DNA of 64,000 nt from a virus. The position numbers and the translations under genes are program-made. Positions 22,545 to 41,300 of this stretch are shown here, piece by piece. The stretch spans positions 32,001 through 96,000 of the IMG/VR virus record IMGVR_UViG_3300033489_000003; one strand, written 5' to 3'. The notes beneath the pieces are model-generated. The model was not told the origin of the DNA and did not search any database. It saw nothing but the letters and a program-made list of their open reading frames with translations. How positions within the stretch are numbered: position 1 is the stretch's first letter; each line of letters begins with the position of its first letter.

Positions 22545-23751
22545 GTGACAACTCCTTCACGAAGCATTGTCTGCCTCGCTACGGCTTCTCGGTTCAACGA
22601 GGCGCTTACAGCTCGCCCCTCCCCGATCGCGGTGCCCCCGCGATTGTACGTTCTTGGCAGCGTTGACGTCGCGGTCCAGTACGAGTCCGCAATGCGGACA
22701 GTCGTGGACGCGAACGCTTAGGCTCTTGCGAACCGTAGCGCCGCAACCGCTGCATTCTTGTGATGTGCCGCGTGGTTCCACCTTGATGAACTCGCGTCCG
22801 GCGCTTTCAGCCTTGTACGCGAGAATCCTGATGAATTGTGCCCATCCGGCGTCGTGAACTTGTTTGGCTAGGCGCATCTGCGCCAAACCTTTGATGCTGA
22901 GATTTTCGACGGCGACCGAATCGAAACGGGCGACGATGCCGCGCGCCGCCTTGTGGTGGAAGTCGAGCCGAGCTCGCCTGACGCGGTCGTGTTGCTTCGC
23001 TAGCAACACAACCGCTTTGCGACGCCGACGCGAACCGCGTTTGCGGCGAGTGACCTTACGGTCAGCCGTTTTGAGCAATTGTAACGCGGACTCGTAGCGC
23101 CTTGGATTCTCAACAGTCTCGCCGGTGCTCAGAGCGGCGAAAGTGGTGACGCCAACGTCGATGCCAACGCTGGCGCCTGTTGCCGTTAGATGTTCGACGC
23201 GGACGTTGTCGCACACGAAAGTCACATACCAGTGGCCGTCTCCGGCGAGCGTGACGCGGACTTGCTTGACCGTGCCTACGATCGGGCGATGCAGCTTAAC
23301 CTTGACCTTGCCGATGCAAGACAGTTCCACCTTGGTTCCGCCAGCAACAAGGCGAGCGCCGTTGCGATTTATCGCGTCACGGAACGTGAAAGTGCGGTAG
23401 CGCCCACGCCCCTTGAACCGTGGAAACCCAGGAGTCTCGCCGGCCTTGCAGCGACGGAAGAACGCACGGTAGGCGCGGTCGAGACGCGTGATAGCGTCCT
23501 GGAGCAGGTGGACGTGAATGCCAGTGTACTCTGGCCGTACAACGCGAACTTCCTTCAGCTCAAGCTGCTGTTGGTACTCGGAAATGGATCGCCCCTGCTT
23601 CTTGTAAGCGTCTCTTCGCTCCTGTAGAGCAGCGTTGTATAGTTCACACAGTAGGCGCATCGTTTCTCGCAAGCGCGCCTCTTGGGCCCGCGTAGGATAG
23701 ATACGATAGCGATAGGCGCGGATCACAGCGCCATCCTTGACTCTACTCATT
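22545..23751 (-). mobile_element. IS200/IS605-family (IS1341-like) tnpB-only element
   Basis: Right end ...GAAGCC...hairpin CGAGGCA-GACAA-TGCTTCG...GGAGTTGTCAC; no tnpA; left boundary inferred. Confidence 0.65.
22557..23750 (-). CDS. tnpB: RNA-guided endonuclease TnpB
   Basis: AYRYRIYPT; RuvC GIDVG / VAVENL / DRDVNAA (D-E-D intact); TSQECSGC..CPHC. Confidence 0.95.
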   Translation of the reverse strand: MSRVKDGAVIRAYRYRIYPTRAQEARLRETMRLLCELYNAALQERRDAYKKQGRSISEYQQQLELKEVRVVRPEYTGIHVHLLQDAITRLDRAYRAFFRRCKAGETPGFPRFKGRGRYRTFTFRDAINRNGARLVAGGTKVELSCIGKVKVKLHRPIVGTVKQVRVTLAGDGHWYVTFVCDNVRVEHLTATGASVGIDVGVTTFAALSTGETVENPRRYESALQLLKTADRKVTRRKRGSRRRRKAVVLLAKQHDRVRRARLDFHHKAARGIVARFDSVAVENLSIKGLAQMRLAKQVHDAGWAQFIRILAYKAESAGREFIKVEPRGTSQECSGCGATVRKSLSVRVHDCPHCGLVLDRDVNAAKNVQSRGHRDRGGASCKRLVEPRSRSEADNAS

Positions 23752-27127: not shown

Positions 27128-27412
27128 TCATCGTGCGCCTCCGTCTCGGAGTTCGAAGACGCACCCGCAGCCGTCGTAGACGCGATAGATGGCAGACGAT
27201 GCGCCGCGCTCTCGGCAGCGAGAGACGCAGCCGGCCATGGCGCCGTCTTGGTAACTAGGGCCGGGGTTGCAGCCGGCGAGGAGTAGCGAGGCGCCGCTAG
27301 CCAACACGAATTGGCTTGTTTTGCGCCATTTCACCAGTGCAAAGGCGCGTAGTATCTCACTTATTCTTTGGCACGCAGACTCCAAGGGTGTGCTTTCCCG
27401 CGCAAGCTTCAT
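27128..27412 (-). CDS. Small Cys-rich lipoprotein-like protein
   Basis: LLLAGC followed by Cys-rich tail. Confidence 0.45.
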   Translation of the reverse strand: MKLARESTPLESACQRISEILRAFALVKWRKTSQFVLASGASLLLAGCNPGPSYQDGAMAGCVSRCRERGASSAIYRVYDGCGCVFELRDGGAR

Positions 27413-28878
27413 AGCCGCTCATCTCCCGCGATCTCTTCAGCCGATCGCCATTCTACCACCGGATCGCGATCTCGCTCGATTCGTACCGCGTGCGCTAGCT
27501 CATGAAGCGCCGCGCGCTGCACCTGTCGGTCGGCCCTTTTCCAAATCGTCTTGATGTTCTCGATCCGCAAGAGCGCCTCACGCCGAAGACCTGCGTTCTC
27601 GAGCGGCGACGGCCTGGCTTGCTGAGCCGCCTTCGACTCCAACCGCGTCCGCGCCTCGTCGACCTTGGCCAAGGATGCGACCAGCTCAGCCTTGGTCATT
27701 CCCGCGTCTGAGAACGCCTCCAGGAATCGCTCGCGCTTCTTCTGGAGTCTGACCCGCTCCGCCACGAAGTCGACCGTCTTAGCCGGCTTCTGTGGCTCTG
27801 GCCCACGGCCCAACTCGTCGCGCAGTTCCACAAGCCGAGCCAGCGTCATGTCAGCCACCAATGGGTCGAAGTGTTTGACCTGCATGTAGTGGGACCCTGG
27901 GCAGGCGCGATGGCACCGGTAATAGTAAGTGTAGTTCTTGGCGCCAGTGTAGAAGCCGCCGCCGTAGGATGCGCCAAGCCTTGCTCCGCATCTTCCGCAC
28001 CGCCCGATCTCACGAAGCAGCCAGTCCTTGGTGCGGGACCCCGCCTGCGGCGCCGCACCGACGAGGCGCCGAGAATCAAGAGCTGCCTGCGCGCGCGCGA
28101 AGACATCCGCGTCGATGAGCGGCTCGTGCATGCCCTTGATCCAAACGCCGCGCGTATCTTTCGTCTCGCCGAGGTAGATGCGGTGACGCAGCGTCTTGTT
28201 GACGAGCTTCTTGTCCCAGCCACGATGACGATAGGTCTTCGTGAGGTGGTCGAGAATCGTCCCGATGGCCGCGCCGCGGATGCACATCCGGTACATCTCG
28301 CGAACGATCGCTGCGCCATCGGCGTCGACGATGAGCACGTTGTGTTCGAGTCGAGAGACGCCCTTGCGCGGCGGACGCACGTAGCCGATCGGCGCGAGTC
28401 CGTCGATGTAGTAGCCGCGATCTCGCAGCAGACGTCTCGTTCCAACCGTCCGCTCTTTGATGCGCTTGTGTTCTTCCCTGGCGACGAGCACTCGAACGCC
28501 GAGCATCGTGTCACCGTCTCGGGTCGACGGGTCGCACCTGTCGCCGACGGCGTAGAACGAGACGCCAGCCTCAAGCAATCTTCTGATGCTGCCGTATGTG
28601 AACTCTGGATCGCGCGACCACCGGTCGAGCTTGTCGCACACGACGAGGTCGCCCTTGCGCGCCTCTTTGAGCAGAAGCTGGATCTGCTCTCGCTTTTCGA
28701 TCCGCTCGTAGACTGCGCTCTCGGCTTCAACATAGAACCGCGTTACCTTTAGGCCGCGTGCTTTCGCGTACGCCGAGATGGCGTCTTGCTGATCTTGGAG
28801 TGACGTTCCCCTTGCTTGATCTTCGCTGGAAACTCTCGCGTAGCCGAATACTCGGCCGACTGTTCCGGCTCCGGACAT
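27409..28878 (-). CDS. Large serine recombinase (integrase)
   Basis: YARVSS catalytic Ser; KLDRWSR; recombinase domain P.GY...HEPLID; Zn ribbon CGRCG..YYRC; coiled coil. Confidence 0.92.
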   Translation of the reverse strand: MSGAGTVGRVFGYARVSSEDQARGTSLQDQQDAISAYAKARGLKVTRFYVEAESAVYERIEKREQIQLLLKEARKGDLVVCDKLDRWSRDPEFTYGSIRRLLEAGVSFYAVGDRCDPSTRDGDTMLGVRVLVAREEHKRIKERTVGTRRLLRDRGYYIDGLAPIGYVRPPRKGVSRLEHNVLIVDADGAAIVREMYRMCIRGAAIGTILDHLTKTYRHRGWDKKLVNKTLRHRIYLGETKDTRGVWIKGMHEPLIDADVFARAQAALDSRRLVGAAPQAGSRTKDWLLREIGRCGRCGARLGASYGGGFYTGAKNYTYYYRCHRACPGSHYMQVKHFDPLVADMTLARLVELRDELGRGPEPQKPAKTVDFVAERVRLQKKRERFLEAFSDAGMTKAELVASLAKVDEARTRLESKAAQQARPSPLENAGLRREALLRIENIKTIWKRADRQVQRAALHELAHAVRIERDRDPVVEWRSAEEIAGDERL

Positions 28879-29367
28879 GCGAGGAGCGGTAACAGCATCG
28901 CGGCGAGTCGGTCAAAGCCGTTCGACATGATGAACTCCTATTCTTTCTCCACACTTGCGCGCATGTTCCGGCTTGCGTCGGACGGATGTTCAGCGAACGA
29001 CATCTGGCGCCGCCTTTCTCAAGTAGTTCCTCGACGTGACCACCCTGAATCCGTCCGCAAACTCAACTAACGCGCTGTTGAGCGCGCCTCGCACGACGAC
29101 GCGACATCTCTGCCCGAAACGCTCGGCCAGCCTAGTGCGCACGCGCCACACGCGGTCGTATTGGTCAACGCGCATCGCGCTTCTCCAAGAGCCGGTGGAG
29201 GATTATCTCCCCGATGGGTTTCACGCCGCTCTCGCTGCGTATTCCGCTCAGCGCCGCTTCGAGTTTCGCGGCCCAGTCAACCGCCGCTTCCTTCTCCGCC
29301 CGCACGGCGTCTAGCTCGGCGAGGAGCGCGAACCTGTCGGCCTGCGTAAACTCAGAACGCGGCTTCT

Positions 29368-29506
29368 TGTGGGAAGCGGGCAGGACTCGAACCTGCGACC
29401 CAAAGATCCGGTAACGATTCTCGGCCGGCCCGTCACCGGGCAAAGATGTGAGAACCGATATCCCTTGCGGGAATTCTTTTGCTCTACCGACTGAGCTACC
29501 GCTTCC
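29368..29506 (-). ncRNA. tRNA-scaffold RNA 2 with a Y-like module replacing the anticodon loop
   Basis: Acceptor GGAAGCGG/CCGCTTCC, D arm GCTC-AGTCGGTA-GAGC, anticodon stem AAAGA/TCTTT enclosing a large structured insert, T arm GCAGG-TTCGAGT-CCTGC. Confidence 0.8.
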
Positions 29507-29519
29507 AAAAAACGAACAG

Positions 29520-29580
29520 CGCGGATAAAGAGGCAGCAGACCGATTTCTATTAGCGAGAACAGTCTGCCTGCGACCCGCG
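29520..29580 (-). ncRNA. Minimal Y-RNA-like RNA B
   Basis: CGCGG-GTCG-CAG-GCAGACTG...CGGTCTGC...CTTTAT-CCGCG two-stem fold. Confidence 0.65.
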
Positions 29581-29581
29581 T

Positions 29582-29706
29582 CGGGGATCCGTCCCGGAAT
29601 CGAACCGGGATATCTACCTTAAATGGGTAACGGTCACTCAGCGGCCCGCGAACGGGCAAAGTACGACTGACCGGTTTTAGCGTCCTGCCTTTAGACGAAC
29701 GGATCC
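29582..29706 (-). ncRNA. tRNA-scaffold RNA 1 with a Y-like module in the anticodon arm
   Basis: Acceptor GGATCCGT/ACGGATCC, D arm GTC-TAAAGGCAG-GAC, T arm CCCGG-TTCGATT-CCGGG; insert CTTTGCCCG-TTCG-CGGGCCG. Confidence 0.8.
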
Positions 29707-29710
29707 ATAA

Positions 29711-29770
29711 GAGCGAATAAGGAGCGCTACCGGAGTCATCCCAAAGATAACCGGTAACTTCGACTCGCTC
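29711..29770 (-). ncRNA. Minimal Y-RNA-like RNA A
   Basis: GAGCGA-GTCG-AAG-TTACCGG-TTATC...CCGGTAG...CCTTAT-TCGCTC. Confidence 0.65.
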
Positions 29771-29776
29771 AACACA

Positions 29777-29805
29777 CATATTCCCCATTCCTTTCGAATT
29801 GTCAA
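29777..29805 (-). promoter_or_regulatory. Promoter for the RNA array
   Basis: Perfect TTGACA just after the Ro60 stop; weak -10 (GAATAT) about 7 nt before RNA A. Confidence 0.5.
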
Positions 29806-29808
29806 TAG

Positions 29809-31497
29809 TCAGTTTCGAGCAAAGTCGGCCATGAGGGCCGGCGCCGCAGAATCGAATCCTACGAAGTCCAACATTCCGGCATCGTTGGGATCGGCGATCG
29901 TGAACTCCGTTGCTGTCATGCCAACTACGGCTAGTTTGGCTGGTCGGCTGAGCTTCTCCCGGTACGCGCGGAGCGCCTGGAATGGATGAATCGTCCCTGC
30001 CCAAGTTTCGTTGTCCGTGTAGACCTGGAACATGTCGACCTCGATATCGGAGCCGGCTGCGTAGAGCATGGGCAATGCGCAATCGGTTCCGCCCATGGGC
30101 AGCTTTGCTATCGCGCGGATGACGTCGTCGAGGCGCTGCTTGGGGCTGATATCGATCGGCGTGAAACCCGGCGCTCCGCCGCCATGCATGCCACCGTACC
30201 CGCGTCCGTTCATCGGTGCCGTAAACCCGAATATGTGCCAGTTTTTCTCTGTGCGAGCAGTCACCATTGCCATCGCTGCGCTGGCCACGCGCGGCGTGAG
30301 ACCAGGGCAGCCAGCGATTGCGCCGCTTTCCATAGACCCTGAGACATCAAGGCCGATCAGGATGTTCTTGCCCGTCGGCTCCACCGCCTGAAACGCCAGG
30401 TAGAACGCTTCGTCGAGCGCGTCGACAATCTCCCGCGCTGGAGCCCAGGTGAGCTTGCCCTTATCCCCGTGGCCTTGCTGATAGACGCGCAGCGCCGACA
30501 GGAGCGCGATCGGGTGAACGCGCGCCTTCTTGATCCTGTCGGCGTCGGCGATCATGCCGGCCGCCAGCTTGACGTGCTCGCCCATCGGCTTGAAGAGCCC
30601 GACTGCCGTCATCTTCGCGAGGTTGCGGACCAGCGCCGTCTGCGGCATCTCTTCGAGCAGCGCTTCCCACACGTCCACCGAGTTCTTGTGCTCTGTCGGG
30701 ATCATCTCGTGGGTGAATCGATGTTGCCGGATGAGCTTCGCGGTCGTCTTCGGATCCGGCGACGCCTTGAGCTCATCGTACGCGGCGAGAAGTGCTGGCA
30801 ACGCTTCCAGCCTGCTCGGGTACTGGACTGCGCGCTCTTCCTTTCCGGCCATGCGCTTCATGCCGCGCTCGCCCATCGGGGCGCCTACGCACCAACGGAA
30901 CGCGGCGTCATGCTGCGGCGTGGGCGCCTTCGGATGCGATAGACGCAGCACGTCACGATGGGCCCAACCGTAGCGCTGTTGATACTTGAGCAGCTGCTGA
31001 GCGAGCCTGTCGGGCTCCTTCGCGGTGTACCACCGAGCAACCGCCGAGCGCAGACCTCGCCCCCACTTGCGGAAGTTCTCCACGTCACGAACGAAGTGGA
31101 ACAGGTGGGTGCCGATGCGGCAGACTTTCGGGAGAGCAGCAAGCGCAATAGCCCTTGTTTCCGGCCTGCTATCAGCGGCCGCCATCGCGAGCGCGAAGAT
31201 CGCCGGGTCGTTCTTGGGCGCGCGACCGGCGTCGGAAATCTCGACGATCCGAGCGACCGTGCGCGCCCCGTCTTCTGCGAGGCAGTCGAGGACGACTTGC
31301 GCGTTGTCGCGCGTGAGCGCCCGCTCAGAGGCGTAGTAGGTCCCGCCGTCAGCGCCCAAGATGAGCCAGCGATCAAGCCGCGCCCACTTGTCGAGCGTGA
31401 ACGCGAAGCCCCCAGCGGAGTTCTTCTTCTGGTCGCTCCGCGCAGACTCCGACTGCGGCGTCTTCAGCGTGGAAAAGTGTTGCCCATAGTTCGACAT
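29809..31497 (-). CDS. rsr: Ro60/TROVE-domain RNA-binding protein
   Basis: NSAGGF.F, RWLILG..GGTYY, KYQQR.GW.HRDVLRLSHP; vWA MIDAS DVSGSM, GGTDCALPM, TDNETWAG. Confidence 0.95.
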   Translation of the reverse strand: MSNYGQHFSTLKTPQSESARSDQKKNSAGGFAFTLDKWARLDRWLILGADGGTYYASERALTRDNAQVVLDCLAEDGARTVARIVEISDAGRAPKNDPAIFALAMAAADSRPETRAIALAALPKVCRIGTHLFHFVRDVENFRKWGRGLRSAVARWYTAKEPDRLAQQLLKYQQRYGWAHRDVLRLSHPKAPTPQHDAAFRWCVGAPMGERGMKRMAGKEERAVQYPSRLEALPALLAAYDELKASPDPKTTAKLIRQHRFTHEMIPTEHKNSVDVWEALLEEMPQTALVRNLAKMTAVGLFKPMGEHVKLAAGMIADADRIKKARVHPIALLSALRVYQQGHGDKGKLTWAPAREIVDALDEAFYLAFQAVEPTGKNILIGLDVSGSMESGAIAGCPGLTPRVASAAMAMVTARTEKNWHIFGFTAPMNGRGYGGMHGGGAPGFTPIDISPKQRLDDVIRAIAKLPMGGTDCALPMLYAAGSDIEVDMFQVYTDNETWAGTIHPFQALRAYREKLSRPAKLAVVGMTATEFTIADPNDAGMLDFVGFDSAAPALMADFARN

Positions 31498-35975: not shown

Positions 35976-36391
35976 AACGGAATTTCATCCTCTCCGCCAA
36001 CGTCGCCTAGGCCTTCGTCCGCCAGCTCCTGCCGTTTCGCTTGCGGCTTCGGCTTCGACTGTCCGCCTCCACCTTGCGCGCCGTCTTTCTTGCCGCCTCC
36101 GCCGAGTTCGATGTCCTCCGCACGCATATCGAGAGATGACTTCTGCTCTCCCTTCGACTCGTACGATCGGACCCACATCTGGCCACGCACCACGACGTAA
36201 GCGCCCTTCGTCAGGTACTGCGCCAGCTTCTCGCCGCGGTCGCCCCACATAGATACGTTGACCCAGTCGGTTACCTTTTCCTTGTTGCGGTAGGCGCTCG
36301 ACGCGATCGAGAACGACGTGACAACGGTGTTGCCGACCTCTTTGGTCTCGGCGTCGCGTCCGAGATGGCCAGATACAGTTGATGAGATCAT
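35972..36391 (-). CDS. ssb: Single-stranded DNA-binding protein
   Basis: GHLGRDAE, W.NVSMWG, YLTKG..V.V.G, acidic tail EDEIPF. Confidence 0.92.
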   Translation of the reverse strand: MISSTVSGHLGRDAETKEVGNTVVTSFSIASSAYRNKEKVTDWVNVSMWGDRGEKLAQYLTKGAYVVVRGQMWVRSYESKGEQKSSLDMRAEDIELGGGGKKDGAQGGGGQSKPKPQAKRQELADEGLGDVGGEDEIPF

Positions 36392-37410
36392 TCGATGTCC
36401 GCCCGGTCTTCTGACTCTGCGCCACCGTTGGCAGCTGTAGCATCGTCGATGCGTTTGCTTGCCTCGTCTGCCGCTGTCTTTAGCCTCGCCTTGTCGTCTT
36501 TGCTTGCGCCGGCCCAGATGGCTCGCCTTTCTTCCTCGAGAACGCGGAGCGTTGCCGCATCCGAGCACGCTTCGTACTGCGCGAGCAGTTTCGAGATGTC
36601 GACTGGCTGGCGCTTTTCGCCTGGGCCGCCAGCTGCCCATTTCGCCAGCGCCTCGCCGATGTCCTCGCTCAACTGGGCCGGCTCTTTGAAGAGATGCCGG
36701 AACTGCTGCGGTATTTTCATCATCATCTGCTCGCCAGCGTATTCTGATTTCCACGTCGGGAAGCCGTTCGCGCCCGGCATGAGAAGGCACTTCAGAACCA
36801 TCTCGTACACGAACTCCTCGCCCGCGATTGGCATCATGCCTAGAGCTTCAGGATCCTTGCCTGGTTTGATTTTGAGCTTCTCCTTTGCGCGCCAGCAAAA
36901 GATGAAGTTGCAATCCATCTGAAGCACGGCGTTGATGAGGCGGCGGCGCTTTTTCTTCGGCTCGCTCCACGCCGACATCTGTGCTTTCGACTCGGACACG
37001 CCCCACAGTTTGGCCAGACGCTTGGTCTCGGATGCGTGTTCTTCCAATACGCCACCCACCGACTCGTGCTCATGACTCATCGAGTCGACGATGATGATCT
37101 TCGCTCCCTTCTTAGCGCAGTGCTCGATGGCCTCCAGGTAATCGAGCGGCGAGAATGGTGCGCCGAAAGGGACGTGTGTGAACTTGAAAGTCTCCGGCGG
37201 CTTCGCTGTTGTGCCAGGAGATGGCGCGTAGTGCAGTGATCGCCGCGCCTCGGTGTCGATCACGAAGATGTCGCCGCCGGTGACGCGTTGAATGCCGGTG
37301 CCAAGGCGCAACGCGCTCATGGTTTTGCCTGTTCCGGACGGGCCTATGAGGCCGAGCAACAGGGGTGTTTTTTCTCTTATTGCCGGCGAATCAACGAATG
37401 TTCGTGACAT
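36388..37410 (-). CDS. AAA ATPase (Sak4-like recombination protein)
   Basis: GPSGTGKT, VIDTE, IIVDSMSHE; lies between the exonuclease and ssb. Confidence 0.8.
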   Translation of the reverse strand: MSRTFVDSPAIREKTPLLLGLIGPSGTGKTMSALRLGTGIQRVTGGDIFVIDTEARRSLHYAPSPGTTAKPPETFKFTHVPFGAPFSPLDYLEAIEHCAKKGAKIIIVDSMSHEHESVGGVLEEHASETKRLAKLWGVSESKAQMSAWSEPKKKRRRLINAVLQMDCNFIFCWRAKEKLKIKPGKDPEALGMMPIAGEEFVYEMVLKCLLMPGANGFPTWKSEYAGEQMMMKIPQQFRHLFKEPAQLSEDIGEALAKWAAGGPGEKRQPVDISKLLAQYEACSDAATLRVLEEERRAIWAGASKDDKARLKTAADEASKRIDDATAANGGAESEDRADIE

Positions 37411-37448
37411 GGCCTTTTCTCCAATCGGTTGCGTTGTGAAAGACGGAG

Positions 37449-38303
37449 CTACGCCGCAGCGTCACTCCCAAGTTCCAGCGCCATCGCCCACGGCGGCGCT
37501 TCGATCTCGATTATTCTGTCGGCGTACCCGCGCCACTTTCCAGAAGTCATGCAGAAGTTCCACGACTCGACCGCGCGATCCCACTTGCTCTGCCCGAGCT
37601 GTCGCATCGACCCACTCGGTCGCACCGGCGTAATGCAGTACGGCGGTTCAATCTCACAGAACAGGAAGACGAAGTCCGTGCGGCCGGCAAGATTCGGAAC
37701 GAGCTTCCCGAGCGCACTCGTGTATGCCGCCCACTGCACGTCATATCCATAGTCGATCATGTGCCGCTGGCAGACCTTCGGATTTGCCGACCGGATCGTT
37801 TTGACGTCGTAGATAGTTCCGCGATCGACGATGAGATGGTCCATCATCCCGCGGCACAGCACCTCGGCGCCGAATTGCGTCTTTTCTTCCCACGCGACCG
37901 CCACCTCAGAAGCTCCGTCGAACTTGACCCCGAGGTCGTCTAGCTGATCGCGCAACGCTTCCACGACCGTTTCGGCACCGTCGATGTCACCGCGCAGCAC
38001 CGGCACCTTGCCAATGAGATGCGCCGCGTCCCTGGCTTCGCGTGCCACCTTCGTCTTGAAGTCCTCCGCTTCGACGATCACGAGCCCCTTGCCGCATCCG
38101 AGCAAAAGCTCATGGATGAGCGACCCGGAATCGAGTGAGCGCGAATGCCGCGACGATGCGCCGCCGAGTTTCGGATGCGCGAGCCACGCATGCTTCGGTG
38201 ATGCCGAGATCAGCATGTTGGCGATGCTTGAACTGAGCGACGGAGTAGGCAGCGGGTCGGCGTGGTACTCCGCCGCTGTGCAGTTGAGAATGCGCGCGGT
38301 CAC
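37449..38303 (-). CDS. RecE/DUF3799-like PD-(D/E)XK exonuclease
   Basis: EYHAD...LSSS...SP, GSLIH..LL, RGMMD, DVKT, YGYDVQWAAY. Confidence 0.85.
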   Translation of the reverse strand: MTARILNCTAAEYHADPLPTPSLSSSIANMLISASPKHAWLAHPKLGGASSRHSRSLDSGSLIHELLLGCGKGLVIVEAEDFKTKVAREARDAAHLIGKVPVLRGDIDGAETVVEALRDQLDDLGVKFDGASEVAVAWEEKTQFGAEVLCRGMMDHLIVDRGTIYDVKTIRSANPKVCQRHMIDYGYDVQWAAYTSALGKLVPNLAGRTDFVFLFCEIEPPYCITPVRPSGSMRQLGQSKWDRAVESWNFCMTSGKWRGYADRIIEIEAPPWAMALELGSDAAA

Positions 38304-41300
38304 AGCTCCACCTCCGCAACCGGACTCGCCGACTCCACGAGCTCCACGCTGAACGAGCGCCCCTCGCGTCCGGTCAATTGATCCAGTTCCGCCTTCCGCA
38401 GCGGCAGCGTGAAACACCTGCCGTCGTACTCCATGAAGGCGCGGCCGTTTTTGATCTCAATCAAAGTTGCTTGGACGGTGATCACTTGGATGCCTCCAGC
38501 TCGATCTCGCTAAGCCTGTCTTGCCAGGTAAACCGATCGCCTTCATCAAACGTCACTAGCGCTTCGATCTCGATAAATCCGGCCGCGGCTAGGAGCTTGT
38601 TCGTCGCCTCTGGCTCATACGGAAACTCCGCCACCCACGCATCGTATTCCTCGGCCGTGCCGCGTGGCGTTCTCATGACACGGTTCACCCTGCCACGTTG
38701 CCACTCCCAGCCGACATCGACGGCGGGAACGCCGAAGATTCGCCGCGCCGCCTCTTCCTTCCTAGCCTCCCACGCTTCCAGCTCCGCACGGAGCGGCGGT
38801 AGATGTCGCAGCAGCAGCGCCTTCAGTTCCGCCACCGTCATCTTCTCAGGATGAGAGAACCACCGTTCGCTGTAATCGGAATACGATCCGCTGGTGAATC
38901 GATATAGGTTCACGATGCCGCGATCTCCTCGTTTATCCTGTCCGAAAGCTCAAGCACCGCGTCCAACCTGTTGCAAAGCATCGCCTGCCGGTGCTGCGCC
39001 ACGAGCGCCTTCTGTAGCGCGCGCTCCGCGATGTCGTCGGCCCCGTTGACCATCGTCGCTTCGCTGAGACGCTTGACGACGTAGCGGAGTCGAAGCAGCT
39101 CGCGGCGCGCGTCTAGCAGCTTCAGCGCGAACTCTTGGTCGGACGGCGGGCGGGTGGTCATGGTAGTACCAGGGTCGCTTTGGTTTGCAGGACGGCGGCG
39201 TGAAACTGCCTAATGGCGCCGCGAAAGTCCTCCATTTGAACAATCGCAAGCCGCACCTTCTTGCGCTGGCGTTGCAGGCGGCGGCGCTTGTGACGCATCA
39301 AAACGCCACGTCGTCCTGCGTCTCAGCCTTGAGCGCAGATGCCTTCTTGGGGGTCTCGTCCTTCGACGCATCCGGCAGGCCAATCGCCCGCCCGGTCCAC
39401 TGCGACGCTTCCTCTATCTGGTCACGCGGAAACGCCTTAAGCAAGAACTTGGCAGCTATGGCGCCGTCGCCAGCGGTCGCTACGTACTCGTCGTACGTCT
39501 TTACGATGCGCCGCATTGCGGCGTCTCGGTCGCGGCAACGGCGCCAATCGGTCCACATGTCGACAAGCGCCTCCTCCTGTGCCCGGACCGCCTTATCGTG
39601 CTCCTCGCGGCGCTTGTCGTTAGACGCCGAGATCTCCGCAGCGCGCTTCACGGTCGTCAGAACTGCGCTGCTCTCTTCCTCGGATCGAAGCTTCTGCGCG
39701 CTGACCGTCGCGTCTTTGCCAAACGCCTTCGCTGACTCGATCGGCGTGCGTCCGCCGTGGTAGTTGGTTTCGACGATCACAGGATCGAGCGCCAAGAACT
39801 TCATGGCGTCTTCCGAAGAGCGGAAGGCGATGTCGAGCTTGTGCCAGGTGTCGCGGCTGACGCGGTAGAACGAAAGCGATGGCTCCGGTACTTCCGGCAC
39901 GGCTTCGAGCTCCAACGTCGACGTGCGGAGAACGCCTTTAGCCATCAGCTCGTACTCGGCGAACCGATCGACCTGTTCTTGCGTGAGTGCCGCGCGCTCT
40001 TCTTCGGGCAGCTCCCAGTAGTCTTTCGTGTTCATTGTCCCTCAGCCCCTTCCTGCGGTCCATCGCTGTCCCGCTCCAACACGACGGCGCCAGCCCTGAC
40101 CTTTGCTTCCGCCGCGATCAATGCATCGACCACAATCCGCCGGTCATTCTCGTCGGCGGTGCCACGCATCCAGCGTTCGACCGCGGCATCCGCCTCAGCG
40201 TCCGAGTACATGCGCAGCCGCGTCTCGTGCACCAGCAGCGACACGATCGACCCGTCTTTCTTCTTCCCCTTTCCACCAATCATCCGCAACATCTCATCCT
40301 CCTATTTGCAAACGTGCTCCCGATACCGCGCCCACCCTTCGTGAAACCGCTCTTCGTACTTTGCTGCCATCGGTTGTCGGTGCCGGTCCAGTTCCAGCAC
40401 GTACGCGCCGTCATCGGCCGCCGCCCAGTCGAGCCGAATCGCCTTCTCGTCCGTGCCGATCACGATGCACGTCGCCACGCCGCAACATTTTCCGTTGCAG
40501 TACGAGCGCCCAAACGACGTATGGGGCAGGACTGGCGGCGGCGGCTTGATGTCGGGAACGTTCGCGTAGTACGACGCGCGGTCGCCGCCACCGCCGGGCA
40601 GATCGGCCCATTCGCCGGGGAAGTATTGGCGTTGGCTGGTCATCCGGTTCACCAGTCCTGGCACATTGCCTCGCCCTTTTCGGCGAGCGCTGCGCGGTTC
40701 GACCGCATCCAATCGAAGTCTTTGCGGCGACCGACGACGCTAAGCGATTCGCCTCCGACGTAGAGCGTAAAGGCTTTCCAATAGCGGCCACCCGCCGCCT
40801 TGAGTTTCTCGCGCATCGTCACCGCAGCTCGCTCCGCCGACAGCGCGTTCGACGCGCAGACCTGCGCGGGCGTGTACGGTCCGAGTCGGTCGGCCTTCAA
40901 TTGAAACAGCCCGAATGCCGTCGGTCTGCCATGCTTGTCGGAATCGCATTCGCGTCTGCGCGAGACCGGGTCTACCCTCGGGCACTGGCAAGTCTCGATC
41001 TCGTGGCGAAAGTTAGATTCCCACTTAGCATTTGCTACCATCGCGAAACCCAAGGGGAGCTCGTCTTCCTCTATGGCGTTGTCGATGTCGATCGCGTACC
41101 GCGCCACCGTCTCGTTCGGCAGGTTCGGCGCTGACCACGCGATGGCGGCTGCGATGATGTGGGCCGAGCTCATGTGTGAGTCTCCTTCAATGCGTCGATC
41201 AACCGACATTCAAGTTCGGTTAGTTCGTCAGCTTCAATAACTGTCAACTTCGCCGACTCGCGCTCTGCCCAGAAGCCCATGACGCCACGCGCCGCCTCTG

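What the first reader, a model, noticed from the sequence alone, without database searches (positions are those of the whole stretch)
29368..31497. Phage Ro60 followed by an alternating array of minimal Y RNAs and tRNA-Y chimeras
Seen: directly after the Ro60 stop there is a TTGACA promoter and four structured RNAs in the order A (29711-29770), tRNA-like 1 (29582-29706), B (29520-29580), tRNA-like 2 (29368-29506). All four share one module: stem-G(T/C)CG-nn-stem2-TT(A/C)...stem2'-CTT(T/A)-stem'. In A and B it is linear with paired ends. In the two tRNA-like RNAs it is circularly permuted, closed by a tetraloop (CTTTGCCCG-TTCG/GTGA-CGGGCCG...CGTTACC) and grafted into the anticodon arm of an otherwise normal tRNA with D arm, T arm and open acceptor ends. 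Known: bacterial Ro60 (Rsr) binds Y RNAs, and YrlA mimics tRNA with a loop-closed acceptor stem. Inference: this is the reverse topology. RNase P/3' processing of the tRNA scaffolds could release all four RNAs from one transcript, giving Ro60 RNPs with real tRNA ends that might act as decoys or tethers against tRNA-targeting defences. I cannot confirm that this arrangement is undescribed.
Basis: partly seen in the sequence, partly recalled or inferred. Interest (0 to 1): 0.92.

Follow-up and report, generated by a model that had tools for sequence, protein, structure and literature searches.

The report
Phage Ro60 with tRNA-shaped Y RNAs
A soil phage carries the RNA-surveillance protein Ro60 followed by four small RNA genes: two minimal Y RNAs alternating with two RNAs wired like real tRNAs that carry the presumed Ro60-docking helix as a closed hairpin. 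This wiring is widespread beside Ro60 genes, is missed by the existing Y-RNA model, and I could not find it in print.

Summary
Window 29809-31497(-) encodes Ro60 (TROVE + vWA_Ro60). It is followed on the same strand by mini-Y RNA A, tRNA-shaped T1, mini-Y B and tRNA-shaped T2.

All four share one module: a helix with G(U/C)CG and a bulged C, a second helix, then UUAYC. In A and B the module ends are open. In T1 and T2 a tetraloop closes it and the acceptor stem is open, which is the reverse of the known YrlA.

- My covariance model of the closed module finds 105 hits beside Ro60 genes in phage and metagenome loci, and 120 in bacterial genomes. All lie on the Ro60 strand.
- In five whole genomes (56.6 Mb) all 19 hits lie in the Ro60 locus.
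- 70 of 102 hits sit in a tRNA frame, against 1-8 at random positions.
- A relative (L029) has the same four-gene array, with 22 compensatory pair changes.

Rfam's YrlA model finds nothing here. I found no paper describing this wiring, but could not read Burroughs & Aravind 2016 (b7a-tRNA). This scan has already noted the same class about 40 times on other DNA.

Ro60 binding, expression, processing and any decoy role remain untested. The TTGACA promoter is weak and not conserved.

The parts
29809..31497 (-). Ro60 (TROVE + vWA) gene, 562 aa
   Evidence: Pfam TROVE 5.9e-48 and vWA_Ro60 1.9e-59. The closest proteins are Polyangiaceae/Sorangium TROVE proteins at 62-65% identity, and one metagenome protein at 81%.
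29800..29805 (-). TTGACA hexamer, a possible -35; weak
   Evidence: Read from the sequence. The best -10 candidate, GAATAT at 29778-29783, matches 3 of 6, and the scan calls no promoter. It is not conserved in L029.
29711..29770 (-). Mini-Y RNA A. The 5' and 3' ends pair, then G-U, U-A, bulged C, G-U. It carries the GUCGAAG motif, a second helix and UUAUC.
   Evidence: Fold z -3.96. The linear-module descriptor finds it. It aligns with 19 other mini-Y RNAs, where 13 of 16 pairs covary. L029 shows 3 compensatory changes. GUCGAAG fits GNCGAAN0-1G of Chen 2014.
29585..29706 (-). T1, a tRNA-order Y RNA. It has a 7-8 bp open acceptor stem, a D arm, the module hairpin, an anticodon-like arm (UUACC CAUUUAA GGUAG, with A at position 33), a T arm (CCCGG UUCGAUU CCGGG) and discriminator C.
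   Evidence: An alifold of 16 class members predicts 28 pairs, 24 of them with compensatory changes. Against L029 there are 10 compensatory changes.
29625..29675 (-). Closed Ro-type module of T1: CGGUCA.UCG ... CUUUGCCCG-UUCG-CGGGC[C]G ... UGA.UGACCG-UUACC
   Evidence: R1 66.6 bits; R2 56.4 bits.
29520..29580 (-). Mini-Y RNA B: CGCGG-GUCG-CAG, helix GCAGACUG/CGGUCUGC, UUCUC, and 3' CUUUAUCCGCG
   Evidence: Fold z -3.33; descriptor hit; member of alignment A7.
29372..29505 (-). T2, a tRNA-order Y RNA. It has acceptor GAAGCGG/CCGCUUC, a canonical D arm, anticodon stem AAAGA/UCUUU, and a loop replaced by the hairpin CCC-GCAA-GGG plus the module plus UUACC. Variable loop GGGUC and a T arm follow.
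   Evidence: Rfam tRNA 53.4 bits with a 65-nt insert. Against L029 there are 9 compensatory changes and 1 broken pair in 38. Class alifold.
29409..29459 (-). Closed Ro-type module of T2: CGGUUCUC ... CUUUGCCCG-GUGA-CGGGC[C]G ... GAGAAUCG-UUACC
   Evidence: R1 65.9 bits; R2 52.3 bits.

Best explanation
**What it is.** This is a Ro60 ribonucleoprotein cassette of a temperate soil phage. It was probably acquired from, or is shared with, Polyangia-type hosts. It consists of the Ro60 gene and four cognate Y RNAs on one strand.

**The shared module.** Each RNA carries the same presumed Ro60-docking module: a helix whose 5' strand reads G(U/C)CG with a bulged C, then a second helix, then UUAYC.
- In A and B the module is made by the RNA's own ends. 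These are classical minimal Y RNAs of the YrlB type.
- In T1 and T2 a tetraloop closes the docking helix, and the module hangs on the hinge of a complete tRNA body. The body's acceptor stem provides the RNA ends.

T1 and T2 are thus YrlA turned back into tRNA strand order.

**Likely maturation (inferred).** The array is transcribed with or just after Ro60. RNase P and the 3' tRNA-processing enzymes cut at T1 and T2. That both matures them, probably with CCA added, and frees A and B. Each RNA then binds the outer face of the Ro60 ring.

**Likely function (inferred).** The mini-Ys act mainly as gates. T1 and T2 present a tRNA elbow and acceptor end to a tRNA-binding partner, as tethers.

**Status of the steps.**
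- Shown: the anatomy, conservation, covariation and exclusive linkage to Ro60.
- Inferred: expression, processing, Ro60 binding and partner recruitment.
For: **Ro60 is intact.** Both domains are present.

**The module matches the known motif.** It matches the motif of Rsr-bound YrlA and YrlB, GNCGAAN0-1G followed later by YUAY (PMC4201824, section 6). A has GUCGAAG, and family members often have GCCGAAGG.

**Covariation.**
- Closed module (A3): 93.9% of cells paired, against 77% in shuffles and at most 49% when slid. All 9 outer pairs covary, while the inner GCCCG/CGGGC helix is conserved in sequence.
- Independent MAFFT/RNAalifold alignments recover the acceptor, D, module and T helices, 24 of 28 pairs compensatory.
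- For the mini-Y class, 13 of 16 pairs are compensatory.
- GUCG goes with CUUA and GCCG with CUUG in 19 of 20 mini-Y RNAs. My descriptor did not force this pair.

**Linkage to Ro60.**
- 105 R2 hits at E<0.01 in 170 phage and metagenome Ro60 loci, all co-oriented with Ro60.
- 120 hits in 80 bacterial Ro60 loci, all co-oriented.
- All 19 hits in five whole genomes (56.6 Mb) fall in the Ro60 locus.

**tRNA frame.** 70 of 102 hits sit in one, against 1-8 at random positions in the same loci.

**Same array in a relative.** L029 has the same Ro60-A-T1-B-T2 array. Of 92 pairs, 22 changed on both sides with pairing kept, 2 on one side, and 9 are broken.

**Alternation recurs.** Tight mini-Y/tRNA-order alternation is seen in L115, L039, L053 and L081.

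**Precedent for processing.** M. smegmatis YrlA is cut by RNase P and gets CCA in vivo while bound to Rsr (PMC4201824, section 8).
Against: - There are no RNA data: no listed sequencing run holding this DNA is RNA.
- Ro60 binding is inferred from a motif and from linkage only.
- B, T1 and T2 keep GNCG but not the AA of GNCGAAG.
- A loop-closed Ro helix has never been shown to bind Ro60.
- CCA is not encoded after T1 or T2.
- The promoter is weak and not conserved.
- A U-run after B could end some transcripts before T2.
- The phage has no RtcB, so the repair context of many bacterial rsr loci is missing.
Confidence: 0.78

Rival explanations
1. Anti-defence decoy. T1 and T2 are tRNA look-alikes with real tRNA ends. 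They would soak up or misdirect host anticodon nucleases or other tRNA-targeting defences, or bring Ro60 to damaged tRNAs. This does not exclude the best explanation. It is a more specific claim about function.
For: - The acceptor ends are open and the elbow is canonical.
- Many family members keep a canonical 7-nt anticodon loop: 19 of 58 have U33 and R37, against a shuffle mean of 0.66 and a maximum of 5.
- T1's loop CAUUUAA resembles a Lys(UUU) loop.
- Ro60 and Y RNAs sit beside RNA-repair genes in many bacteria (10.1101/312249, discussion).
Against: - Nothing in the window links the cassette to a defence or counter-defence gene, and there is no RtcB.
- T2 has no anticodon loop at all.
- T1 has A33. 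Its loop differs in size and sequence in the closest relative (8 nt, AUCUUCAA), so the supposed bait is not conserved.
- The same RNAs are chromosomal in many bacteria. That argues for a housekeeping or stress role rather than one specific to phages.
Confidence: 0.12
2. T1 and T2 are working decoding tRNAs. Either they function with an extra arm, or the insert is removed to give ordinary tRNAs.
For: - Rfam's tRNA model scores T2 at 53.4 bits.
- T2's two halves match ordinary tRNA genes in other soil metagenomes, where 15-21 nt anticodon arms stand in place of the insert.
- A subset of homologues keeps canonical anticodon loops.
Against: - ARAGORN finds no tRNA in the window.
- T2's loop is replaced by about 65 nt of conserved, covarying structure. 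There is no group I intron, and no bacterial splicing route is known for such an insert.
- T1 has A33, the only such case among 22 arms.
- In the wider family the apparent anticodons do not fit the tRNA bodies. The 'Ser' and 'Leu' ones lack a long variable arm, and the 'Cys' ones have C73, not U73. Reading these as mismatches rests on textbook tRNA identity rules.
- The insert is the most conserved part of the RNA, which is the opposite of an intron.
Confidence: 0.05
3. The RNAs are degenerate tRNA genes or attachment-site remnants next to the integrase, and the shared module is a chance resemblance.
For: A serine recombinase gene lies about 500 nt downstream of T2. Phages often carry tRNA fragments at attachment sites.
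Against: - Both RNAs are complete, with 7-bp acceptor stems.
- The whole array is conserved with compensatory changes in L029.
- Module hits are confined to Ro60 loci and to the Ro60 strand.
- Serine integrases do not typically use tRNA attachment sites (general knowledge).
Confidence: 0.02

Closest known systems
YrlA (Y RNA-like A; Rfam RF02553; Chen et al. 2014, PMC4201824; structure in Wang et al. 2018, 10.1101/312249)
   Same: It is encoded beside Ro60/rsr. It has the Ro-side motif GNCG(AA)G, then a helix, then YUAY, and a tRNA-like D/T elbow. It is also found in phages.
   Different: In YrlA the RNA ends form the Ro helix, the T arm comes before the D arm, and the 'acceptor' is a closed stem-loop. 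In T1 and T2 a tetraloop closes the Ro helix, D comes before T, and a 7-bp acceptor stem carries the ends. RF02553 gives no hit here even at E<=10.
[quoted passage not shown]
   Same: It is an Rsr-bound tRNA-like Y RNA with an open, CCA-ended acceptor stem made by tRNA-processing enzymes. A YrlB is processed from the same precursor.
   Different: That RNA becomes two pieces, with both the Ro helix and the acceptor open. T1 and T2 would be single chains.
YrlB, D. radiodurans Yrn2, and Thermus phage phiLo Yrl1/Yrl2 (PMC12135203)
   Same: These are short Y RNAs made of little more than the Ro-binding stem, encoded next to Ro60. The phiLo RNAs bind the phage Ro60 and form complexes with host PNPase.
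   Different: A and B are 60-61 nt and alternate with tRNA-shaped RNAs. Binding has not been tested here.
D. radiodurans Yrn1
   Same: Chen 2014 models it with D-like and T arms in tRNA order, and an anticodon-like arm between them.
   Different: In Yrn1 the Ro-binding helix takes the acceptor position and carries the ends. Here a true acceptor stem carries the ends and the Ro helix is internal.
b7a-tRNA (Band-7-associated tRNA-like RNA; Burroughs & Aravind 2016, as cited in 10.1101/312249)
   Same: [quoted passage not shown]
   Different: I could not read the paper. I therefore cannot say whether it has a Ro-type hairpin or overlaps this class. No Band-7 protein turned up among the 18 ORFs I scanned against Pfam or PHROGs, and the phage genome has no RtcB.
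tRNA-like punctuation of non-coding transcripts (MALAT1/mascRNA; mitochondrial tRNA punctuation)
   Same: tRNA-shaped elements recruit RNase P and RNase Z to cut neighbouring RNAs out of one precursor.
   Different: This is an analogy of mechanism only; the elements are not related.

Membership tests
Y RNA (Ro60-bound ncRNA, broad sense) | Encoded next to, and co-oriented with, a Ro60/TROVE gene | tested here: met
   The array starts 38 nt after the Ro60 stop on the same strand. Family-wide, all hits lie on the Ro60 strand, and genome-wide only at the Ro60 locus.
Y RNA (Ro60-bound ncRNA, broad sense) | Conserved helix with the Ro-contact motif (GGUCCGA in metazoa; GNCGAAN0-1G in bacteria) and a bulged nucleotide | tested here: met
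   A has GUCGAAG exactly. B, T1 and T2 keep GNCG (GUCGCAG, GCCGCUG, GCCGGCC). A bulged C is flanked by covarying pairs, U-A switching to C-G in 19 of 20. The inner helix is conserved.
Y RNA (Ro60-bound ncRNA, broad sense) | The Ro-binding stem is formed by the RNA's own 5' and 3' ends | tested here: not met
   Met for A and B. Not met for T1 and T2, where tetraloops UUCG and GUGA close the stem.
Y RNA (Ro60-bound ncRNA, broad sense) | Physically bound by Ro60 | not testable with these tools
   Needs immunoprecipitation or a gel-shift assay.
YrlA (RF02553) | Match to the curated covariance model | tested here: not met
   No RF02553 hit in 29200-29900 at E<=10. In nine related loci the only hit is 31 bits, against a gathering score of 69.
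YrlA (RF02553) | T arm 5' of the D arm, with a loop-closed acceptor-like stem between them | tested here: not met
   The D arm precedes the T arm, and the acceptor stem is open and carries the ends.
YrlA (RF02553) | tRNA-like D and T arms, and YUAY after the Ro-side strand | tested here: met
   D arm GUAGCUCAGUCGGUAGAGC, T loops UUCGAGU and UUCGAUU, and UUAC directly after the module in both T1 and T2.
tRNA (RF00005) | Cloverleaf with a 7-bp acceptor stem, D arm and T arm | tested here: met
   T2 scores 53.4 bits. The T1 frame was found by my script and by alifold.
tRNA (RF00005) | 5-bp anticodon stem with a 7-nt loop, U33 and purine 37 | tested here: not met
   T2 has a 65-nt insert in the loop. 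T1's loop is CAUUUAA, with A33. ARAGORN calls neither.
tRNA (RF00005) | Aminoacylation and decoding | not testable with these tools
   Needs acid gels, charging assays or ribosome association.
b7a-tRNA (Burroughs & Aravind 2016) | tRNA-like RNA linked to a Band-7/SPFH protein and RtcB | tested here: inconclusive
   The phage genome has no RtcB. No Band-7 protein turned up among the 18 window ORFs scanned against Pfam or PHROGs. The defining paper is not held, so the RNA's own features could not be compared.

The most novel reading that the evidence does not exclude
tRNA-order Y RNAs are a distinct, ancient class of Ro60 partner. They would be matured like tRNAs, with an RNase P cut at the 5' end and a CCA 3' end, and some might be charged or recognised by tRNA-specific enzymes. 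They would physically couple the Ro60 ring to the tRNA world, whether surveillance or repair of damaged tRNAs or, in phages, interference with tRNA-targeting defences. They could also be the evolutionary source of YrlA. Two adjacent tRNA-order genes, read from module to module, give exactly the YrlA strand order. That would replace the 'dimeric ordinary tRNA' origin model with a concrete intermediate.
Probability: 0.2. Interest if true: 0.8.

Novelty: new variant of a known kind. Interest (0 to 1): 0.62.

Why it matters
Bacterial Y RNAs are known as tRNA mimics with a closed acceptor stem, and what their tRNA-like half binds is still unknown.

A widespread natural form with the opposite wiring changes what partners are possible. 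It has real tRNA ends and an internal Ro60 handle. RNase P, RNase Z, the CCA-adding enzyme, perhaps synthetases or EF-Tu, and tRNA-targeting nucleases all become candidates.

It also gives a direct experimental handle. The class occurs in cultured bacteria such as Sorangium, Minicystis, Chondromyces and Desulfonema.

It bears on how YrlA arose from tRNA.

On the practical side, gene finders either miss these genes or report them as tRNAs with a large insert, and the Rfam YrlA model does not detect them. Ro60 loci therefore look as if they lack a Y RNA when they do not.

For this phage, it means that the only tRNA-like genes in a 104.6-kb genome are Ro60 partners, not decoders.

Tried and rejected
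I could not fetch the contigs of the closest Ro60 proteins (81% and 72% identity). I used the search for related loci instead.
- **Viral scan with the single Ro60 protein** gave one unrelated-looking locus.
- **blastn of the RNA array against phage records** found only generic tRNA pieces.
- **The 16-base pattern scan** gave 29 loci. About that number is expected by chance. Only L008, L010, L014 and L029 proved to be real relatives.
- **ARAGORN after cutting out the module** is uninformative, because shuffled controls gave as many calls. I replaced it with a strict anticodon-arm test with shuffles.
- **My first linear-module descriptor** was too strict and missed A and B. I loosened it.
- **Expression.** No RNA holder is listed among the public runs. 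Laying contigs of four soil runs gave no joined or spliced form of T1 or T2. It showed only ordinary tRNAs matching T2's two halves, and one ~95% relative of A and T1 without its pairing partners.
- **Literature.** Eight searches found no description of the tRNA-order form. Sim & Wolin 2018, Sim et al. 2020 and Burroughs & Aravind 2016 are not held.
- **Attachment-site remnant** was considered and rejected.
Full report
**What is there.** The window is part of a 104,643-bp virus record from a soil metagenome. CheckV rates it 100% complete.

The ORF at 29809-31497(-) is a full Ro60, matching Pfam TROVE at 5.9e-48 and vWA_Ro60 at 1.9e-59. Its nearest relatives are TROVE proteins of Polyangiaceae and Sorangium at 62-65% identity, with one metagenome protein at 81%. 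The best match in deposited phage genomes is only 48%.

A large serine recombinase lies about 500 nt downstream of the RNA array. The genome holds no RtcB and no ordinary tRNA.

**The four RNAs.** Reading the Ro60 strand, four elements follow the stop codon.

| Element | Coordinates | Fold z-score |
|---|---|---|
| A | 29711-29770 | -3.96 |
| T1 | 29585-29706 | -2.63 |
| B | 29520-29580 | -3.33 |
| T2 | 29372-29505 | -2.67 |

The spacers between them are 4, 5 and 14 nt.

A and B are hairpins closed by their own ends. Above the terminal stem come G-U, U-A, a bulged C and G-U. Then comes a second helix, then UUAUC in A or UUCUC in B.

A carries GUCGAAG. That is an exact match to GNCGAAN0-1G, the motif Chen et al. 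found at the 5' end of Rsr-bound YrlA and YrlB (PMC4201824, section 6).

T2 is a canonical tRNA body, scoring 53.4 bits with Rfam's tRNA model. Its anticodon stem AAAGA/UCUUU is kept. Its loop is replaced by a small GCAA hairpin, the module, and UUACC.

T1 has a 7-8 bp acceptor stem, a D arm, the module, a separate arm UUACC-CAUUUAA-GGUAG, a 4-nt variable loop and a T arm.

Only T2 has the module in the anticodon loop. T1 has it between the D arm and an anticodon-like arm.

**Is it more than chance?** I built a covariance model of the 51-nt closed module from T1 and T2 alone (R1). It found about 50 further sites in Ro60 loci fetched from metagenomes and IMG/VR, all on the Ro60 strand.

On the 46 best hits:
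- 93.9% of cells pair, against 77% in column shuffles and at most 49% when partners are slid.
- All nine pairs of the outer helix show double changes.
- The inner GCCCG/CGGGC helix is conserved in sequence, as expected of a protein-contacted site.

The rebuilt model R2 gave these results:
- 105 hits at E<0.01 in 170 phage and metagenome Ro60 loci.
- 120 hits at E<=0.001 in 80 Ro60 loci of bacterial genomes. These include Sorangium, Polyangium, Chondromyces, Minicystis, Kofleriaceae, Armatimonadota, Chloroflexota, Gemmatimonadota, Verrucomicrobiota and Desulfonema.
- Every hit in a Ro60-oriented locus is on the Ro60 strand.

Searching five whole genomes (56.6 Mb), all 19 hits fall inside the Ro60 locus. 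Only the 150 best first-look candidates per genome were scored there.

**The tRNA frame.**
- 70 of 102 hits lie between a D arm and a T arm closed by a 6-7 of 7 acceptor stem, giving RNAs of 100-160 nt. Random positions in the same loci give 1-8 of 102.
- MAFFT plus RNAalifold, not fitted to my model, recovers the acceptor, D, both module helices and the T stem for 16 T1-class RNAs. It predicts 28 pairs, 24 with compensatory changes.
- For 10 T2-class RNAs it recovers the acceptor, D, inner module and T stems.
- Cultured bacteria carry the same ~120-nt genes right beside Ro60.

**The closest relative.** IMG/VR contig L029 has a 544-aa ORF that I did not scan; by its position upstream of the array I take it to be Ro60. 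It is followed by the same A-T1-B-T2 array at 80% column identity.

I hand-defined 92 pairs in A, T1 and T2 and followed them into L029:
- 59 are unchanged.
- 22 changed on both sides and still pair.
- 2 changed on one side.
- 9 are broken, several of them at MAFFT indels.

The changes touch every helix, including T2's anticodon stem (A-U to U-A) and its GNRA hairpin (C-G to G-C). T1's anticodon-like loop is not conserved: 8 nt, AUCUUCAA, in L029.

**The mini-Y class.** A descriptor for the open module finds A and B. In Ro60 loci it finds 132 sites on the Ro60 strand against 3 on the other. The sites include 57-72-nt mini-Ys and 120-145-nt classical YrlA-order RNAs.

In an alignment of 20 mini-Ys, 13 of 16 predicted pairs covary. 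The pair that my descriptor did not force switches cleanly: GUCG goes with CUUA, and GCCG with CUUG, in 19 of 20. Some mini-Ys score just under threshold with Rfam's nematode sbRNA family, RF01656. From memory, sbRNAs are Y-RNA homologues; I did not check this in a paper.

Tight alternation of mini-Y and tRNA-order genes recurs in L115, L039, L053 and L081.

**Decoder or mimic?** In 22 of 58 clean frames a 5-bp/7-nt arm sits in the canonical anticodon register. Nineteen of these have U33 and R37, against a shuffle mean of 0.66 and a maximum of 5. So part of the family keeps an anticodon-loop shape.

The triplets are diverse, however, and do not fit the bodies. The 'Ser' and 'Leu' ones lack long variable arms, and the 'Cys' ones have C73. 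Reading these as mismatches uses textbook identity rules.

The window's T1 is the only A33 case, and T2 has no loop. I conclude these are mimics, not decoders.

Homologues also graft the module at different points: into the D-loop, at the 26/27 junction, into the anticodon loop, or in place of the whole arm.

**Promoter and processing.** TTGACA at 29800-29805 is a perfect -35. The best -10 is GAATAT, a 3-of-6 match. No promoter is called, and L029 has only 9 nt between the Ro60 stop and A'. Co-transcription with Ro60 is at least as likely.

Release by RNase P and 3' processing is inferred. It rests on the anatomy, the short spacers, and the M. smegmatis precedent. There, YrlA is cut by RNase P, gains CCA, and shares a precursor with YrlB (PMC4201824, section 8).

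[quoted passage not shown] Its authors speculated that some might be processed to look more like tRNA (10.1101/312249). T1 and T2 are the un-permuted counterpart encoded directly in DNA.

RF02553 does not detect them. Chen et al. discarded hits overlapping annotated tandem tRNA genes (PMC4201824, section 18), which may have hidden this class.

I found no description in eight literature searches. Three relevant papers are not held. One of them, Burroughs & Aravind 2016, predicts a tRNA-like 'b7a-tRNA' that is occasionally found beside Rsr.

This scan's own notebook holds about 40 earlier notes of the same class in at least 37 other genomes. I tested their shared claim independently here and agree with it.

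**Verdict.** The structural reading, the reverse topology of YrlA, is supported. The functional reading as a decoy is untested.

It is a new variant of a known kind. It is real, widespread and apparently unpublished, but it is not new to this scan.

Noticed in passing
window 22557-23750 (-): TnpB / IS605 OrfB-type ORF of 397 aa. It matches Cas12f1-like TNB, OrfB_IS605 and HTH_OrfB_IS605, and PHROG 506 transposase.
   Followed up: no
window 27409-28878 (-): Large serine recombinase (Resolvase, Recombinase and a sub-threshold Zn-ribbon match), about 500 nt downstream of T2. The phage is probably temperate.
   Followed up: no
window 29165-29404 (-): An open frame runs through the 3' part of T2 into a small, coiled-coil-looking ORF (…FTQADRFALLAELDAVRAEKEAAVDWAAKLEAAL…). 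No obvious start codon follows T2, so its true start is unclear.
   Followed up: partly
window 36388-38417 (-): An AAA_24 protein and an exonuclease VIII / PDDEXK (DUF3799) protein lie side by side. They look like a recombination module.
   Followed up: no
L197, L199 (Sorangium cellulosum So0157-2), L212 (Chondromyces apiculatus): In Polyangia the Ro60 gene sits inside arrays of dozens of same-strand tRNA genes. tRNA-order Y RNAs are interspersed and show up as 120-135-nt 'tRNA' hits.
   Followed up: partly
L100 2041-2173; L272 about 1650-1770: Here the Ro-type module is inserted in the D-loop rather than near the anticodon arm. Elsewhere it replaces the whole anticodon arm (L105 570-673, L081 1777-1885). 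The graft point is therefore not fixed across the family.
   Followed up: partly
L199 4450-4500; L200 4447-4496; L212 4767-4816: A closed module hairpin stands alone between two tRNA-like elements, flanked by a short extra stem. It may be a third, minimal closed form.
   Followed up: no
L081 1703-1773 and 2135-2203; L212 5911-5982; L002 1727-1861: Bacterial and phage mini-Y RNAs score just below threshold with Rfam RF01656, a nematode sbRNA family: 33.6-35.9 bits in the loci and 28.6 bits in L002, against a gathering score of 38. That sbRNAs are Y-RNA homologues is from memory, not checked here.
   Followed up: no
window 29379-29402 and 29479-29499: Contigs from other soil metagenomes match T2's two halves with ordinary 15-21-nt anticodon arms between them (Lys-UUU, Asn-GUU, Pro-UGG). 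T2's body is a generic bacterial tRNA scaffold.
   Followed up: partly
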